64,000 nucleotides of DNA from Candidatus Nanoarchaeia archaeon. Lineage in GTDB: Archaea; Nanobdellota; Nanobdellia; SCGC-AAA011-G17; JAFCDX01. The stretch spans positions 187,927 through 251,926 of the forward strand of contig JAQUOT010000001.1 in the NCBI GenBank assembly GCA_028716945.1, in the 5' to 3' direction. Both the position numbers and the translations under genes were made by a program. The notes below the pieces were generated by a model. The model searched no databases, was not told where the DNA came from, and saw only the letters and a list, made by a program, of their open reading frames with translations. Position 1 is the stretch's first letter. The number at the start of each line of letters is the position of its first letter. Of the stretch, positions 59,903 through 64,000 are shown piece by piece.

Positions 59903-60304
59903 ATGAAAAAAGTTTTAGTTTGGGGAACCTTTGATGGATTACATAAAGGACATTTAGAATTTCTAAAAAATGCGAAGAGTTTAGGAGATAAATTATATAT
60001 TATAATTATCCCAGACAAAGCAGTAAAAGAAAACAAAGGGAAATACCCTATAAAAAATGCAGAAGAAAGAAAAAAAGAATTATTAAAATTAAAATTTGTA
60101 ACTGAAGTTTATAGCGGACTTTATGAGGAGAATTTAAAATACATTTTAAAATTAAAACCAGAGGTAGTTATCTTCGGATATGATCAAAAAACTAAATGGG
60201 AAGAAAATCTAAAGAAAACTCTTTCTTCAAAAGGAATTTTTCCAGAATATATTTATTTAGAAGAATATAATAATGGAATTCATTCTAGTGATTTAAATAA
60301 ATAA
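59903..60304 (+). CDS. Cytidylyltransferase-family nucleotidyltransferase (RibL/FAD synthetase-like)
   Basis: 133 aa. VLVWGTFDGLHKGHLEFLKNAKSLGDKLYIIIIPD contains the (T/H)xGH motif. Confidence 0.6.
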   Translation: MKKVLVWGTFDGLHKGHLEFLKNAKSLGDKLYIIIIPDKAVKENKGKYPIKNAEERKKELLKLKFVTEVYSGLYEENLKYILKLKPEVVIFGYDQKTKWEENLKKTLSSKGIFPEYIYLEEYNNGIHSSDLNK

Positions 60305-60323
60305 AAAAAAGAAAAAAATAAAT

Positions 60324-60506
60324 TTATTTACAACATTTTGATGCCCACATTAATTTATGTAGTCCCATCAAAATTATTAAAACAGCAAATAATTGTACTA
60401 TAGTTGGTTGTTTAAGCCAAGCCCAAAGACCAATTGCTATTAAAATTAGTCCACCAACTAAAATCATTGGTTTAGAATGTTTGCACATTCCCATTTCTTT
60501 TGCCAT
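60324..60506 (-). CDS. Small two-TM membrane protein ending in CCK, hypothetical
   Basis: 60-aa ORF that appears paralogous to the adjacent 56-aa ORF (shared GLW...G..KL pattern). Confidence 0.4.
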   Translation of the reverse strand: MAKEMGMCKHSKPMILVGGLILIAIGLWAWLKQPTIVQLFAVLIILMGLHKLMWASKCCK

Positions 60507-60510
60507 TTTC

Positions 60511-60681
60511 TTATTTCATTAACTTATAATTTCTTACAAGTTTACCTATACCTATTACTAAAACTACTAAAGCTACAATCCAACCTTGCAAATTAAGCAA
60601 TGAAGCAGGTATTACACCTAATTGTGCTAGAACTAGCCATAGACCAAGTATAGTTACTAACCAAGCTGTTAGTTTTGCCAT
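60511..60681 (-). CDS. Small two-TM membrane protein, hypothetical
   Basis: Hand-translated 56 aa: MAKLTAWLVTILGLWLVLAQLGVIPASLLNLQGWIVALVVLVIGIGKLVRNYKLMK. It is preceded by aaggagg on the minus strand. Confidence 0.4.
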   Translation of the reverse strand: MAKLTAWLVTILGLWLVLAQLGVIPASLLNLQGWIVALVVLVIGIGKLVRNYKLMK

Positions 60682-60786
60682 TTTTTCCTCCTTTTATTGA
60701 GTTATATGAGAGAAATGACTCCCAACCACCTAAGAATCTAAAGGACTTTAGGTTTATAAAGATTTTTATAAGGTTTTAAAAGTATA

Positions 60787-60882
60787 TGAGCCCGCGGAGA
60801 TTTGAACTCCGGGCCCCCACCAATGATTTGGTTTAAATCCAATTTATCAGAGTGGTGCGCTACCAGGCTGCGCCACGGGCTC
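60787..60882 (-). tRNA. tRNA-Ile (anticodon GAT) with a 22-nt anticodon-loop intron (60822..60843)
   Basis: Read on the minus strand, the acceptor is GAGCCCG/CGGGCTC plus A73. The D-arm is GCGC-AGCCTGGTA-GCGC, the anticodon arm CCACT-CTGATAA-GGTGG after splicing, and the T-arm CGGAG-TTCAAAT-CTCCG. The BHB is TGAT|AAA|TTGG...CCAA|ATCA|TTG. The mature product is 74 nt. Confidence 0.85.
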
Positions 60883-60961
60883 ATGAGATATATTGTTAAA
60901 AGATAATTTATAAGGTTTTTGAATTGATAAAGTTTAAATAATATTAAATTTTAACTATCCT

Positions 60962-61630
60962 ATGCAGAGGTGGCTACATAAATTAGAACATTGGGTAGAT
61001 AAATTAATACCTATCTCTTTAATTGTTTTAATTGGTTTAATCATAGGAGAATTATTCTATAAAGAACAAATACATCCTTATTTAACTTTTGTAACAATAG
61101 CAGATTGGGGTATAATAGGTTTATTTGTTATAGATTTAACTTTTAAATGGTTCAGAGTAAGAAATATTCCAAAATTCTTAAAAAAATATTGGTTAGATAT
61201 TTTAGCTATATTTCCGTTTTTTTTAGTTTTTAGAGCTTTAGAAGGAGTTGGAGAATTAATTACTGTAGTAAGCGAATACTTTACTCCTACACAAAAAGTA
61301 GTTCATGCTGGAACAGAAATAGGTAAAGAAGTTATAATAATAGAGGAAGGTACTGCTAAAATAATTAAAGAAGCTGAAGCAGCAGGAAAATTATCAAGAA
61401 CAGAAAGATTTGCAAGATTTTTAAGACCTTTAGCAAGGGCTCCAAGATTTTTACATTTAACAGATAAAGATACAAAAAAAGAATTTAAAAAAGAGATTAA
61501 ATTTATAGAAAAAGAAGAAAGAAAAGTAGTTAAAAAAGAAGAATCTTTCTTTGTAAGATTATATAAACATATAGTAAAAGTAATTGTCTTCTTTGAAAAA
61601 CCTTCTCATCATAAAAAGAGAAAGATTTAA
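60962..61630 (+). CDS. Voltage-sensor-domain-like membrane protein without a pore domain
   Basis: 222 aa. Three N-terminal TM helices include YWLDILAIFPFFLVF (S3-like). After a soluble insert of about 50 aa comes an Arg-repeat segment, RFARFLRPLARAPRFL (S4-like). I see no pore or selectivity-filter sequence. The tail is basic. Confidence 0.5.
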   Translation: MQRWLHKLEHWVDKLIPISLIVLIGLIIGELFYKEQIHPYLTFVTIADWGIIGLFVIDLTFKWFRVRNIPKFLKKYWLDILAIFPFFLVFRALEGVGELITVVSEYFTPTQKVVHAGTEIGKEVIIIEEGTAKIIKEAEAAGKLSRTERFARFLRPLARAPRFLHLTDKDTKKEFKKEIKFIEKEERKVVKKEESFFVRLYKHIVKVIVFFEKPSHHKKRKI

Positions 61631-61673
61631 AAGAAGCGGCAGTTAACAACCACCGTCAAATTTTAAATAAAAA

Positions 61674-62687
61674 ATGGAAAAAAAAGAAATACTTGCACAT
61701 TTTAGTTATGGAAGTGCTATAAGAAATGCTATAGAAAAAATAACTAATGCTAATCGTGGAGTTTTAGTTGTTTTTGTTAAAGATAAGGGTATTAAAAAAA
61801 TAAGTGTTGGTGGTTTTAAAATAAATGAAGAGTTTTCTGAAGAAAGACTTGCTGAATTAGCAAAATTAGATGGAGCAATATTGGTAGATAATAAACTACA
61901 AAAAATAATTAGTGCTAATGTCTTATTAAATCCGAGTATAAAAATTCCTAGTACAGAAACAGGTACAAGACATCAAGCAGCAGAAAGAACTGCAAGACAA
62001 TTAGATACAATGGTTCTTGCTATTTCTGCAAAAACAGGAACTGCAATGGTATATCATGGAAATGGTAAATTAAAATTAAATAATTTAGGTAAAATATTCA
62101 CAAAGACTGGAGAAGCACTAAGAATTATTGAAAAGCATAGAGAATTATTTAAAGTTTTAATAAAAAAGTTTGATACTTTTGAATTATTAGAAATGGTTAC
62201 ATTAGAAGACCTTGCTTCTATATTTCAAAGAGAAAAAATAATGGATTCTGTTGCAGATATAATCTCTGTTTATTTAAGCGAATTAGGTGATGAAGGAGAA
62301 TTAACAGAATTACAATTAAAAGAAATTATAACTTATGTTCATGCAGAATTAGCTGCAATTATGGCAGATTATCATGATTATTTTAATTTTGATAAGATAA
62401 TTGAAGAATTAAAAGACTTAAAACGTGATGAAATTGTAGTTAAAGAAAACATTTTTAAAATATTCTTAGATAATAGAAAAAAAGAAGATACATTAATACC
62501 GAAAGGTTATAGAATATTAAAGAACATCCCTATTTTAACAGAAGAAAATATAAAGTTATTAATGGAAACTTTCCCAAGTTTAAAAGAATTAATTTCTGCT
62601 CAAGAAGAAGAATTAGCTGCTATCAAATCTATAGGAAATAAAAAGGCTAAAGCTATAAGAGAATATCTATTAAAAGCACAGATTTAA
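61674..62687 (+). CDS. disA: DisA-type diadenylate cyclase (DAC domain, helical linker and C-terminal HhH)
   Basis: 337 aa. The DAC motifs are LDGAILVD and ETGTRHQAAERTARQ. The layout is collinear with bacterial DisA, and the C-terminus has IKSIGNKKAKAIREYL (HhH). Confidence 0.8.
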   Translation: MEKKEILAHFSYGSAIRNAIEKITNANRGVLVVFVKDKGIKKISVGGFKINEEFSEERLAELAKLDGAILVDNKLQKIISANVLLNPSIKIPSTETGTRHQAAERTARQLDTMVLAISAKTGTAMVYHGNGKLKLNNLGKIFTKTGEALRIIEKHRELFKVLIKKFDTFELLEMVTLEDLASIFQREKIMDSVADIISVYLSELGDEGELTELQLKEIITYVHAELAAIMADYHDYFNFDKIIEELKDLKRDEIVVKENIFKIFLDNRKKEDTLIPKGYRILKNIPILTEENIKLLMETFPSLKELISAQEEELAAIKSIGNKKAKAIREYLLKAQI

Positions 62688-63382
62688 GAATTATTTCTAA
62701 AATAATAATATTTTTTCCAATGTTTGGGGTTATTAGGAGAGATAATTTTCATCCATTTATTTAACATAAATTCTCCTCTAATTGAAACCTTATATAAATC
62801 TAACCAATTATGATTTTTATGTTTATAAGAATAGATTGTAGAACGAATTCCTAATTTGTTTATTAAATTATTTAATTGTAATCCTAAAGGTTTAGAAGTG
62901 GTGCTTATCTCTAAACGAGGATATAATTTTTTATATTTTGGTTGTAAATATAAAGTTCCATCCGTATCAAAGATTCCTTTAACCACATTAATAGTATACT
63001 CCTTTCTATTTAAGAAACAAGAAGGTATACAAATATCAAATTTTTTACCAAGAGGTAATTTAAGAATTTTATTTTTAAATTCGATTAATGAATCATCCCA
63101 AATTTGAAATCCAAATACTTTTGTAGAAGGCATTTCTTTTGGTTTTATTTTTAAATCATAAACTTTTTTATATAAATCTATAATTTTATTATTATAATGT
63201 TCTTTATCATCAAACATATGCCCCCTTAAAGAATAAAGTCCTTTAGACGTATTTCCGTTTTTGTAAAAATTCATACTTCCATCTCCAATATGCAATCCTG
63301 TTTCTTCTGCTAATTCTATTATTGGTTTTTCTGGAAGTATAAGTTTAGTGCTTTGCTTAATGTCAGATAAATCAAACTTCAT
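62684..63382 (-). CDS. LAGLIDADG family endonuclease (two-motif, free-standing), paralog B
   Basis: 232 aa. It starts MKFDLSDIKQS like paralog A. The motifs are TGLHIGDGSM and VKGIFDTDGTL. Confidence 0.8.
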   Translation of the reverse strand: MKFDLSDIKQSTKLILPEKPIIELAEETGLHIGDGSMNFYKNGNTSKGLYSLRGHMFDDKEHYNNKIIDLYKKVYDLKIKPKEMPSTKVFGFQIWDDSLIEFKNKILKLPLGKKFDICIPSCFLNRKEYTINVVKGIFDTDGTLYLQPKYKKLYPRLEISTTSKPLGLQLNNLINKLGIRSTIYSYKHKNHNWLDLYKVSIRGEFMLNKWMKIISPNNPKHWKKYYYFRNNS

Positions 63383-63403
63383 AATTAAGATAAGTAAATT
63401 TCA

Positions 63404-63459
63404 TTTATAAATCTGGCGCGCACATCTTGCAAGTTGCAATTTGTTAGAATATATATTTT
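63404..63459. repeat. Conserved 56-nt block upstream of LAGLIDADG paralog B
   Basis: tttataaatctggcgcgcacatcttgcaagttgcaatttgttagaatatatatttt is the counterpart of 18049..18105. It lies between tRNA-Asn and the endonuclease gene. Confidence 0.85.
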
Positions 63460-63488
63460 AGAGAATATATTTTAAATAAAAAGAAAAG

Positions 63489-63618
63489 CGCCTTAGGGAG
63501 GACTCGAACCTCCGACCACCTGATTAACAGTCTCACCTTTCCATATTGGAAAACAGGTGCTCTACCCTTCAGATCTTCTGAACCTAAAAGGCCAGATGGT
63601 TTGCTGAGCTACTAAGGC
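63489..63618 (-). tRNA. tRNA-Asn (anticodon GTT) with two introns (63567..63601 in the D-loop, 63532..63553 in the anticodon stem at 30/31)
   Basis: Read on the minus strand, the acceptor is GCCTTAG/CTAAGGC plus G73. After splicing the D-arm is GCTC-AGCAGGTA-GAGC and the anticodon arm CCTGA-CTGTTAA-TCAGG. The variable loop is TGGTC and the T-arm GGAGG-TTCGAGT-CCTCC, giving 73 nt. Both introns are bounded by BHB motifs (TCAG|CAA...CTGA|AGG and CACC|TGT|TTTCCA-ATA-TGGAAA|GGTG|AGA). Confidence 0.85.
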
Positions 63619-63657
63619 ATGATTTAAAAGACTTAGAATTAATTTAAAAAGGTTTCC

Positions 63658-64000
63658 TTAATCAATAAAGTCTTTATTCTTTATCTTTTCAGGCAGATAT
63701 TTATCAGAAATAAAGCTTATAATACCACTTCTTAATTTATAACTATCCGCCCATTTAGCATAAGCATTCCATCCATTAAAACTTTCTAATAGATTATCAT
63801 AAATAATTTCATTGTTTTTGTATTGAGATATTCTAAATAATATTTTTCTTATATTTCTTTTTCTTAATAATTTATGATAATAGAAATTTCTAAAACCTAC
63901 AAAGTCTATGCCTTTTGATAAAGAGATTATTTTTGATTTTTCTGAATGCAACTCTAGTTTTAGCTCTTTATTTAGGAAATTATTTATTTGTTCCTTCCAA
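63658..64000 (-). CDS. Reverse transcriptase, C-terminal part (N-terminus beyond the right window edge); compact DGR/retron-like rather than group II maturase-like
   Basis: The track ORF 63658..63951 begins at a TTG. The same frame stays open to the window edge (WKEQINNFLNKELKLELHSEKSKIISLSKGIDFVGF...). It shows the L.L..EK(T/S).I.....G..F(L/V)GF RT motif 6-7 pattern. Only about 75 aa follow the FVGF motif. Confidence 0.65.
   Translation of the reverse strand, partial: WKEQINNFLNKELKLELHSEKSKIISLSKGIDFVGFRNFYYHKLLRKRNIRKILFRISQYKNNEIIYDNLLESFNGWNAYAKWADSYKLRSGIISFISDKYLPEKIKNKDFID

What the first reader, a model, noticed from the sequence alone, without database searches (positions are those of the whole stretch)
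62684..64000. Compact reverse transcriptase at the window edge, a possible DGR-type RT in a mobile-element hotspot
The minus-strand frame is open from the window edge to 63658. It shows RT motifs 6-7 (LNKELKLELHSEKSKIISLSKGIDFVGF), followed by only about 75 aa. That is too short for a group II intron maturase (X/En domains) and fits retron- or DGR-type RTs. From memory and unverified, the tail ..LLESFNGWNAYAKWADSYKLRSGI.. resembles the C-terminal S..GH..HA(D)(S/T)..LR signature of diversity-generating retroelement RTs. DGRs are known to be common in DPANN archaea. If it is a DGR, the template repeat and the variable repeat of its target gene should lie just beyond position 64000, upstream of the RT. 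The RT, the two-intron tRNA-Asn and a LAGLIDADG gene are packed within 1.3 kb.
Basis: partly seen in the sequence, partly recalled or inferred. Interest (0 to 1): 0.6.

Follow-up and report, generated by a model that had tools for sequence, protein, structure and literature searches.

The report
DGR reverse transcriptase, cut by window edge
The window ends inside the gene for a reverse transcriptase of the kind that deliberately mutates one target gene (a diversity-generating retroelement, already known in tiny DPANN archaea), and in many relatives this gene carries a slippery DNA repeat that appears to switch the enzyme on and off.

Summary
Window 63661-63999 (minus strand) is an open frame running off the edge. 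It encodes the last 113 residues of a reverse transcriptase (RT): motifs 6-7 and the thumb.

The DGR reading is supported indirectly. [quoted passage not shown] Its homologues (up to 75% identical) are 335-390 aa DPANN RTs with the DGR motif LGNLTSQ and YVDD. In 47 of 55 related loci an adenine-biased TR/VR pair lies just upstream of the RT. The cassette for this copy would lie beyond base 64000 and could not be retrieved.

A finding outside the window: in 64 of 115 related loci, the stretch between motifs 3 and 4 holds a poly-G or (GA)n repeat. Of loci with G/C runs of 8 or more, 21 of 31 are out of frame. Of (GA)n loci, 20 of 21 are. Of repeat-free loci, 3 of 51 are. Changing only the repeat length restores the full frame in 41 of 47 broken loci. 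Two natural populations differ only in repeat length (G10/G11/G12; (GA)9/(GA)10).

This looks like an on/off switch for the diversifier. I found no report of it. Whether this window's copy has the repeat is unknown.

The parts
63661..63999 (-). 3' end of the RT gene: the last 113 codons. The frame continues past base 64000, so the gene is cut by the window edge.
   Evidence: Translation. 697 homologues, best E=2.5e-40. Sole PDB match is the BPP-1 DGR RT, 8ub7_A residues 237-316.
63658..63660 (-). TAA stop codon of the RT gene
   Evidence: Sequence and translation.
63892..63951 (-). RT motifs 6-7 (LHSEKSKIISLSKGIDFVGF), fragment residues 17-36
   Evidence: Columns H18, K21, S22, L27, S28, G30, D32, F33, G35 and F36 are invariant in the family alignment. 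The segment aligns to bRT VSRGINFLGY.
63730..63774 (-). Thumb signature GWNAYAKWADSYKLR, fragment residues 76-90
   Evidence: G76, W77, A79, Y80, W83 and A84 are invariant. The segment aligns to bRT SWSGHAQWADTHNL.
63489..63618 (-). tRNA-Asn(GUU) gene interrupted twice, 39 nt downstream of the RT stop. It is a neighbour, not shown to be part of the DGR.
   Evidence: ARAGORN calls tRNA-Asn(GTT) only after a D-arm segment and a 22-nt anticodon-stem segment are deleted. Rfam tRNA match is 20.3 bits, below threshold. The fold has z=-4.2.
62684..63382 (-). Free-standing LAGLIDADG-type endonuclease ORF of 232 aa. It is a neighbour, not shown to be part of the DGR.
   Evidence: Pfam LAGLIDADG_3, E=2.6e-9, residues 132-203. 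The identical protein sits in the same context in two Logan assemblies.

Best explanation
Window 63658-63999 (-) is the 3' third of the reverse-transcriptase gene of a diversity-generating retroelement (DGR) in a DPANN-type archaeon. It covers motifs 6-7 and the thumb. By homology the whole gene is about 335-390 codons. Its motif-4 codons should lie near 64150 and its start near 64700-64800. A template repeat (TR) should lie 30-110 nt upstream of the start, and a roughly 230-300-aa target gene with a 3' variable repeat (VR) beyond that. All of this is outside the window. The inferred mechanism is that of characterised DGRs: the RT copies TR RNA with errors at adenines, and the cDNA overwrites the VR, diversifying a ligand-binding protein. 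In this RT clade there is an added layer. The loop-coding stretch between motifs 3 and 4 often holds a poly-G or (GA)n repeat. Length changes in the repeat move the catalytic half (motifs 4-7, including YVDD) in or out of frame. The diversifier is therefore most likely switched on and off by slipped-strand mutation. Shown: what the fragment is, the DGR architecture of the relatives, the link between repeat and frame state, and repeat-length differences between natural populations. Inferred: that this copy has a TR/VR pair, that the switching is reversible and adaptive, and whether this copy has a repeat at all.
For: Identity of the fragment. The frame is open to the window edge. There are 697 homologues, the best at 70% identity. 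The only PDB match is BPP-1 bRT. A full-length homologue matches bRT at E=3.9e-42, well above group II and retron RTs. Motif 4 LGNLTSQ and YVDD are nearly invariant in homologues.

DGR architecture of relatives. TR/VR pairs were read directly in L096, L003 and L005. Across loci, 47 of 55 have a pair with at least 70% of mismatches at TR adenines. This includes 24 of 25 loci whose RT is out of frame.

Repeat switch. In 115 non-redundant loci, the in-frame/out-of-frame counts are: no repeat 48/3; poly-G/C 5-7 nt 9/3; poly-G/C of 8 or more 10/21; (GA)n 1/20. Fisher's test of long repeats against no repeat gives p=6e-15. Changing only the repeat length by 1-2 units gives a stop-free 332-370-aa ORF in 27 of 32 plus 14 of 15 out-of-frame loci. 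Of 38 runs (G/C of 8 or more, or (GA) of 6 or more units) in 659 kb of flanking DNA, 36 lie at this one site.

Natural polymorphism. One groundwater population has G10 in 6 contigs, G12 in 2, and G11 (in frame) in 10. The predicted G11 protein is 100% identical to database protein P0121. L088 and L096 differ over 3,100 nt by the tract length alone. A second population, from two replicate samples of one well, has (GA)10 against (GA)9 with 0 mismatches in 5,516 nt.

Tolerance of the insert. The repeat-encoded segment is an insertion relative to bRT. It is a low-confidence, unstructured loop in an AlphaFold model: residues 180-197, pLDDT below 50.
Against: Nothing upstream of fragment residue 1 could be read for this copy. 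Motif 4, YxDD, the repeat site, TR, VR and the target gene are all untested here. No relative closer than 75% identity was found. No target-gene or TR homologue lies inside the window. This is expected if the cassette is beyond the edge, but it is also what an orphan RT would give. For the switch: no reads were available, so mixtures within one sample and reversibility are not shown. Poly-G length calls from short reads are error-prone. No protein or RNA data exist. About 44% of loci have no repeat. The closest relative population has only G6 and is out of frame in all 4 contigs listed, each from a different sample (5 contigs carry the protein), which looks more like a fixed break than a switch.
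Confidence: 0.85

Rival explanations
1. The window's RT is an orphan or decaying copy: a DGR-clade RT with no working TR/VR, or one broken upstream of the window. In that case nothing is being diversified here.
For: Eight of 55 related loci showed no adenine-biased pair. Some relatives carry breaks unrelated to repeats: a 1-nt deletion in L023 and an internal deletion in L066. The closest population (G6) is out of frame in all 4 contigs listed. No TR or target homologue lies in the window.
Against: The visible 113 codons keep every family-invariant residue and contain no stop. 47 of 55 relatives have a TR/VR pair directly upstream, which is exactly where this window stops.
Confidence: 0.1
2. 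It is another kind of prokaryotic RT: group II intron maturase, retron RT, or an Abi/defence RT.
For: There is a weak NCBIfam hit to group_II_RT_mat (27.9 bits, E=1.2e-6) covering the same C-terminal region. Some sources name homologues 'retron-type' or 'maturase family'.
Against: That hit is far below the family cut-off of 300 bits. No group II intron or retron RNA family matched in 60000-64000. PDB ranking puts bRT first at 3.9e-42, with LtrA at 2e-22 and retron-type at 4.5e-21. Homologues have SQ rather than SP in motif 4, and they sit next to TR/VR pairs.
Confidence: 0.02
3. The frame breaks in relatives are sequencing or assembly errors at repeats. The real genes would all be in frame and no switch would exist.
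For: Homopolymers of 10-12 G are hard for short reads. One scaffold (L092) has an N gap abutting the tract.
Against: (GA)n tracts are not homopolymers, yet 20 of 21 are out of frame. Both out-of-frame phases occur. Two replicate samples at 35x and 18x coverage give (GA)10 and (GA)9. The same G10, G11 or G12 call recurs in several independent assemblies. Poly-G loci of 8 or more are in frame in 10 of 31 cases, matching the one-third expected for free-running tract lengths. Occasional error around an in-frame truth would not give that ratio.
Confidence: 0.06
4. The repeats act at the RNA or protein level. Transcriptional slippage or ribosomal frameshifting on the G or GA run would give a set fraction of full-length RT from any allele. 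Alternatively the two halves are made separately from the conserved Met of KGMPLGNL and then assemble.
For: Long runs are known slippage sites (general knowledge). The ATG before PLGNL is present in 29 of 31 out-of-frame loci, so a C-terminal half could start there. (GA)n loci are in frame less often than chance (1 of 21, p=0.002), which hints that the out-of-frame state is the normal one.
Against: That Met is equally conserved in continuous, repeat-free genes (39 of 41), so it is a motif residue rather than a dedicated start. Both +1 and +2 offsets occur in similar numbers, which does not fit a fixed-direction programmed frameshift. DNA-level length variants, including an exact in-frame allele, exist in nature. 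This rival can coexist with DNA-level switching.
Confidence: 0.15

Closest known systems
Bordetella phage BPP-1 DGR reverse transcriptase (bRT; PDB 8ub7)
   Same: It is the only solved structure the window fragment matches. A full-length relative aligns end to end at E=3.9e-42, sharing IGxxxSQ-type motif 4, YxDD and the C-terminal WAD(S/T) signature. Relatives use an adenine-biased TR/VR pair.
   Different: No Avd-like accessory gene was detected in the relatives examined (Pfam scan of neighbours). The gene order is target, TR, RT. The host is archaeal. There is a variable insertion of roughly 8-40 aa before motif 4 that bRT lacks, often encoded by a simple repeat.
DGRs of Nanoarchaeota and other DPANN archaea (Paul et al. 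2015, PMC4372165; later surveys PMC5758913 and PMC8144416)
   Same: It is the same clade. Loci from SCGC AAA011-G17 (a genome analysed in Paul et al. 2015) and AAA011-D5 are among the relatives at 64-71% identity, with the same cassette layout.
   Different: The papers I could search do not mention repeat tracts or frame breaks in the RT gene. The 2017 Nature Microbiology survey of CPR/DPANN DGRs was not available to me.
Simple-sequence-repeat contingency loci of bacteria (for example poly-G tracts in Neisseria, Campylobacter and Haemophilus genes, and phase-variable methyltransferases; reviewed in PMC11868660)
   Same: An intragenic homopolymer or dinucleotide tract sets the reading frame. 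Tract length differs between otherwise identical genomes. The tract is far over-represented at one site.
   Different: The switched gene is not a surface or modification gene but the engine of a targeted hypermutation system. The hosts are DPANN archaea. Switching rates and phenotypes have not been measured.

Membership tests
DGR reverse transcriptase | Closest sequence relationship is to experimentally characterised DGR RTs rather than to other RT classes | tested here: met
   The window fragment has a sole PDB hit, 8ub7_A (E=3.5e-7), which equals BPP-1 brt. Homologue P0121 scores 3.9e-42 to bRT against 2e-22 or weaker for group II and retron RTs.
DGR reverse transcriptase | Motif 4 of the form [I/L/V]GxxxSQ | not testable with these tools
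   For this copy the motif lies about 150 nt beyond base 64000. In homologues, (P)LGNLTSQ is nearly invariant.
DGR reverse transcriptase | Catalytic YxDD box and RT motifs 1-7 in one intact gene | tested here: inconclusive
   Only motifs 6-7 and the thumb are in the window, and they are intact. Homologues have YVDD. About 41% of related loci (47 of 115) have the gene out of frame.
Diversity-generating retroelement (whole cassette) | A TR/VR repeat pair near the RT whose mismatches fall at TR adenines | not testable with these tools
   The expected position is beyond 64000. The contig could not be extended. No homologue of relatives' TRs lies inside the window. Relatives: 47 of 55 loci meet the feature (examples).
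Diversity-generating retroelement (whole cassette) | A target gene carrying the VR at its 3' end | not testable with these tools
   Relatives have a roughly 230-300-aa ORF with a 3' VR directly upstream of the TR. No homologue of these lies in the window.
Diversity-generating retroelement (whole cassette) | Accessory protein (Avd or HRDC type); common but not universal | tested here: not met
   This was tested on relatives only. Neighbours of the RT in L096, L003 and L005 gave no Pfam match to an accessory family.
Group II intron RT/maturase | Reaches the family model cut-off and sits inside a group II intron RNA | tested here: not met
   TIGR04416 scores 27.9 bits against a cut-off of 300. 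No intron RNA family matched in 60000-64000 at E<=1.
Retron RT | Adjacent msr/msd non-coding RNA and retron-clade RT sequence | tested here: not met
   No retron RNA family matched. Retron-type RTs score about 20 orders of magnitude worse than bRT. The 5' flank of this copy was not seen.
Simple-sequence-repeat phase-variable gene (contingency locus); applies to the RT clade | An intragenic repeat whose unit changes shift the frame, with the rest of the gene intact | tested here: met
   Tested on relatives. 41 of 47 out-of-frame loci become a full ORF by changing the repeat length only. Repeat presence against frame state gives p=6e-15. This window's copy is not testable.
Simple-sequence-repeat phase-variable gene (contingency locus); applies to the RT clade | Tract length is polymorphic among otherwise identical genomes | tested here: met
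   G10/G11/G12 with 0 mismatches over 1.7-3.1 kb. (GA)9/(GA)10 with 0 mismatches over 5.5 kb.
Simple-sequence-repeat phase-variable gene (contingency locus); applies to the RT clade | High-frequency, reversible switching with an on/off phenotype | not testable with these tools
   This needs read-level data, cultures or expression assays.

The most novel reading that the evidence does not exclude
In this DPANN DGR clade the reverse transcriptase gene is itself a contingency locus. A hypermutable poly-G or (GA)n tract lies in a disordered loop between RT motifs 3 and 4, and at a second site in at least one genome. It flips the catalytic half in and out of frame. Populations therefore keep a mostly 'off' diversifier with rare 'on' cells, which would lock in useful target variants. 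This would be a natural on/off control of DGR activity and a clear case of repeat-driven phase variation in archaea. I found no report of it. The window's own copy may or may not carry the tract; about 45-55% of relatives carry one of some length.
Probability: 0.6. Interest if true: 0.75.

Novelty: new member of a known kind. Interest (0 to 1): 0.5.

Why it matters
The window feature itself is one more DPANN DGR, which adds little. The clade-level pattern matters more. How DGR activity is controlled in nature is an open question; a 2026 study calls it 'an exciting frontier' (PMC12875486). A repeat-driven switch in the RT gene gives a simple, testable answer for one large clade. It predicts that VR diversity tracks the in-frame fraction. 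It would also explain why about 40% of these RT genes are annotated as roughly 150-aa fragments, and it warns that DGR surveys requiring an intact RT ORF will miss them.

Tried and rejected
**Extending the contig past 64000.**
- Exact-protein look-ups with the LAGLIDADG and DisA proteins found only two Logan contigs. Both stop 51 nt upstream of the LAGLIDADG gene.
- A 60-mer from the window end found nothing in genome contigs or metagenome contigs.
- A protein-based scan of metagenomes found no relative above 75% identity.

**Other checks.**
- Pfam gave no RT hit for the 113-aa fragment. This reflects the fragment's length rather than counting against the call.
- Group II intron and retron readings were rejected.
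- An intron or other spliced insert at the junction was rejected. Exact in-frame alleles exist in which the tract is simply translated, and there is no conserved boundary structure.
- A hairpin flanking the poly-G as a general feature was rejected. It occurs in only 6 of 37 loci.
- A single origin for each repeat type was not supported. In a neighbour-joining tree the poly-G, (GA)n and repeat-free loci are intermixed, but the tree is star-like and weak.
- No remote target or TR lies inside the window.
- Literature searches pairing DGR terms with phase variation, homopolymer, slipped-strand or frameshift returned nothing relevant.
Full report
**1. The observation**

On the minus strand, the frame that begins at base 63999 is open for 113 codons. 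It ends at a TAA stop at 63660-63658. The other two frames are full of stops.

The two neighbours named in the finding are also real:
- The ORF at 62684-63382 (-) encodes 232 aa and matches Pfam LAGLIDADG_3 at E=2.6e-9.
- The stretch 63489-63618 (-) becomes a tRNA-Asn(GTT) for ARAGORN only after two segments are removed. One is about 32-35 nt in the D-arm. The other is 22 nt, directly after CCUG of the anticodon stem.
- Unspliced, this stretch is missed by ARAGORN and scores 20.3 bits on the Rfam tRNA model, below threshold.

**2. What the fragment is**

Pfam does not recognise the 113 residues. NCBIfam gives only a far sub-threshold hit to the group II RT/maturase model, 27.9 bits against a cut-off of 300.

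A search of the large protein collection gives 697 homologues, the best at 70% identity and E=2.5e-40. They come from Nanoarchaeota, Pacearchaeota, Woesearchaeota and Aenigmarchaeota assemblies. All family-invariant residues are kept in the window fragment.

Against solved structures, the fragment matches one sequence only, 8ub7_A (E=3.5e-7). That chain is 100% identical to brt of Bordetella phage BPP-1, the reference DGR RT.

A full-length homologue, P0121, aligns with bRT end to end at E=3.9e-42. The next matches are LtrA at 2e-22 and retron-type RTs at 4.5e-21. Homologues carry KGMPLGNLTSQ, which is the DGR form of motif 4, and YVDD. No group II intron or retron RNA family is found at 60000-64000.

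**3. Are the relatives real DGRs?**

Yes.
- In L096, L003 and L005 a 79-89-nt repeat pair lies upstream of the RT. One copy is in the 3' end of a roughly 235-265-aa gene, and the other is in the intergenic stretch just before the RT. Nearly all mismatches fall at adenines of the RT-proximal copy.
- Across the 55 species-representative loci with enough upstream DNA, 47 have such a pair with at least 70% of mismatches at TR adenines.
- The order is always target (3' VR), TR, RT.
- The relatives include SCGC AAA011-G17, one of the single-cell genomes in which Nanoarchaeota DGRs were first described (PMC4372165), and a related single-cell genome, AAA011-D5.

I could not retrieve that sequence. No TR or target homologue lies within the window.

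**4. An unexpected pattern in the clade**

Almost all of the best hits to the fragment are only about 150 aa long and start at MPLGNL. In the genomes, an upstream ORF of about 190-230 aa encodes RT motifs 1-3 in a different frame and overlaps or abuts this short ORF. At the join there is a run of 11-12 G in L003 and L005.

I measured this join in 73 loci from species-representative genomes and in 42 further non-redundant metagenome loci:

| Repeat at the join | In frame | Out of frame |
|---|---|---|
| None | 48 | 3 |
| Poly-G/C, 5-7 nt | 9 | 3 |
| Poly-G/C, 8 nt or more | 10 | 21 |
| (GA)n or (TC)n | 1 | 20 |

- Fisher's test of long repeats against no repeat gives p=6e-15.
- Poly-G loci of 8 or more are in frame exactly as often as free-running lengths predict (one third).
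- (GA)n loci are in frame less often than that (p=0.002).
- Both out-of-frame phases occur.
- Changing nothing but the repeat length, by one or two units, turns 27 of 32 and 14 of 15 broken genes into stop-free ORFs of 332-370 codons.
- The exceptions are a 1-nt deletion, an N gap, an internal deletion and two complex cases.
- Of 38 such runs in 659 kb of these AT-rich loci, 36 lie at this one site.
- One genome, L025, has an intact join but a G10 at a second site, between motifs 5 and 6, which also breaks the frame.
- 24 of 25 out-of-frame loci still have an adenine-mutated VR, so their RT has worked in the past.

**5. Direct evidence for length variation**

*First population.* The 151-aa C-terminal product P0059 is found on contigs with G10 (six contigs) or G12 (two contigs). 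I predicted the G11 in-frame fusion, and it is 100% identical to database protein P0121. That protein is present on ten contigs in the same gene neighbourhood, all with G11. L088 (G12) and L096 (G11) differ over 3,100 nt by that single base. L091 (G10) and L096 differ over 1,714 nt likewise.

*Second population.* Two replicate samples of one groundwater well have (GA)10 at 35x coverage and (GA)9 at 18x. There are no mismatches in 5,516 nt. Both are out of frame, and (GA)8 or (GA)11 would be in frame.

**6. Where the repeat sits in the protein**

The repeat-encoded residues form an insertion relative to bRT, immediately before motif 4. In an AlphaFold model of P0121 (mean pLDDT 76.7), residues 180-197 have pLDDT below 50 and no secondary structure. 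A Gly run or a Glu-Arg run of variable length is therefore plausible to tolerate there. An out-of-frame allele ends shortly after the tract and lacks motifs 4-7, including the catalytic YVDD.

**7. Mechanism and rivals**

The best reading is slipped-strand length change at the DNA level, switching the RT, and with it diversification, on and off.
- Sequencing error cannot explain the (GA)n data or the one-third ratio.
- A fixed programmed frameshift does not fit the mix of phases.
- A dedicated restart at the Met of MPLGNL is not indicated, because repeat-free continuous genes keep that Met equally often, 39 of 41.
- Leaky expression through transcriptional slippage, or a two-piece enzyme, cannot be excluded without RNA or protein data.
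- Repeat types are intermixed in a weak tree. Two loci carry the poly-G element in reverse orientation. Only 6 of 37 have an adjoining hairpin.

**8. Comparison with what is known**

DGRs in DPANN archaea are known (PMC4372165, PMC5758913, PMC8144416). The window feature is a new member of that kind.

Full-text searches pairing DGR terms with phase variation, repeats, homopolymers, slipped-strand or frameshifts found no description of repeat-interrupted RT genes. The 2017 CPR/DPANN survey was not available to me, so prior mention cannot be ruled out. Regulation of DGR activity in nature is described as open (PMC12875486).

**9. Verdict**

The decisive TR/VR test for this copy lies outside the window. 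The 'mobile-element hotspot' label is not established.

The window feature alone is ordinary. The clade-wide repeat switch is the interesting part. It is well supported by comparative data, untested at the level of reads and protein, and of unknown status in this copy.

Noticed in passing
window 60787-60882 (-): tRNA-Ile(GAU) with a 23-nt insertion in the anticodon loop, probably a canonical archaeal intron.
   Followed up: no
window about 63433, between the LAGLIDADG gene and tRNA-Asn: Two Logan assemblies of the same organism (SRR22315509, SRR22315508) both end 51 nt upstream of the LAGLIDADG gene. The assembly graph may branch here, which hints that the tRNA/DGR side varies between strains.
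   Followed up: no
window 61674-62687 (+): A DisA-type diadenylate cyclase (NCBIfam NF010009, 293 bits) sits in an archaeal, 27.5% GC, DPANN-like context.
   Followed up: no
L025:4989-4998 (Nanoarchaeota SCGC AAA011-D5): A second-site G10 lies inside the RT gene, at the Trp codon between motifs 5 and 6, and breaks the frame while the usual join is intact and repeat-free. In the window the equivalent codon is the first one visible (W at 63997-63999), and it has no repeat.
   Followed up: partly
L026:4818-4829 and L035 junction: The poly-G element with its CGAACGA...TTTGCGAG flank is present in reverse orientation (C12, C7) at the same site of the RT gene, still in frame. This suggests an inversion or re-insertion of a small palindromic element.
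   Followed up: partly
L003, L049, L071, L145, L181, L140 junctions: An AATTTGCC-N3-5-GGCAAATT hairpin directly abuts the poly-G tract in 6 of 37 poly-G loci. Its role is unknown.
   Followed up: partly
L096:2891-2969 compared with L097, L098 and L089: The template repeat exists as two alleles in one population, with 7 differences at 2904-2953, although TRs are usually described as invariant.
   Followed up: no
L096:4664-4969; L100:3030-3699: Toxin-antitoxin-type genes (PemK; RHH plus PIN) lie just downstream of the DGR RT in two unrelated populations.
   Followed up: no
L183-L186 (the population closest to the window RT, 70% identity): The join has only G6, and the gene is out of frame in all 4 contigs listed, each from a different sample (5 contigs carry the protein). 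Both halves are otherwise intact. This may be a locked-off copy.
   Followed up: partly
L130 junction: A repeat-free, in-frame locus has AAGGGAAGG where relatives have poly-G, between the same inverted flanks. It looks like a tract stabilised by interruptions.
   Followed up: no
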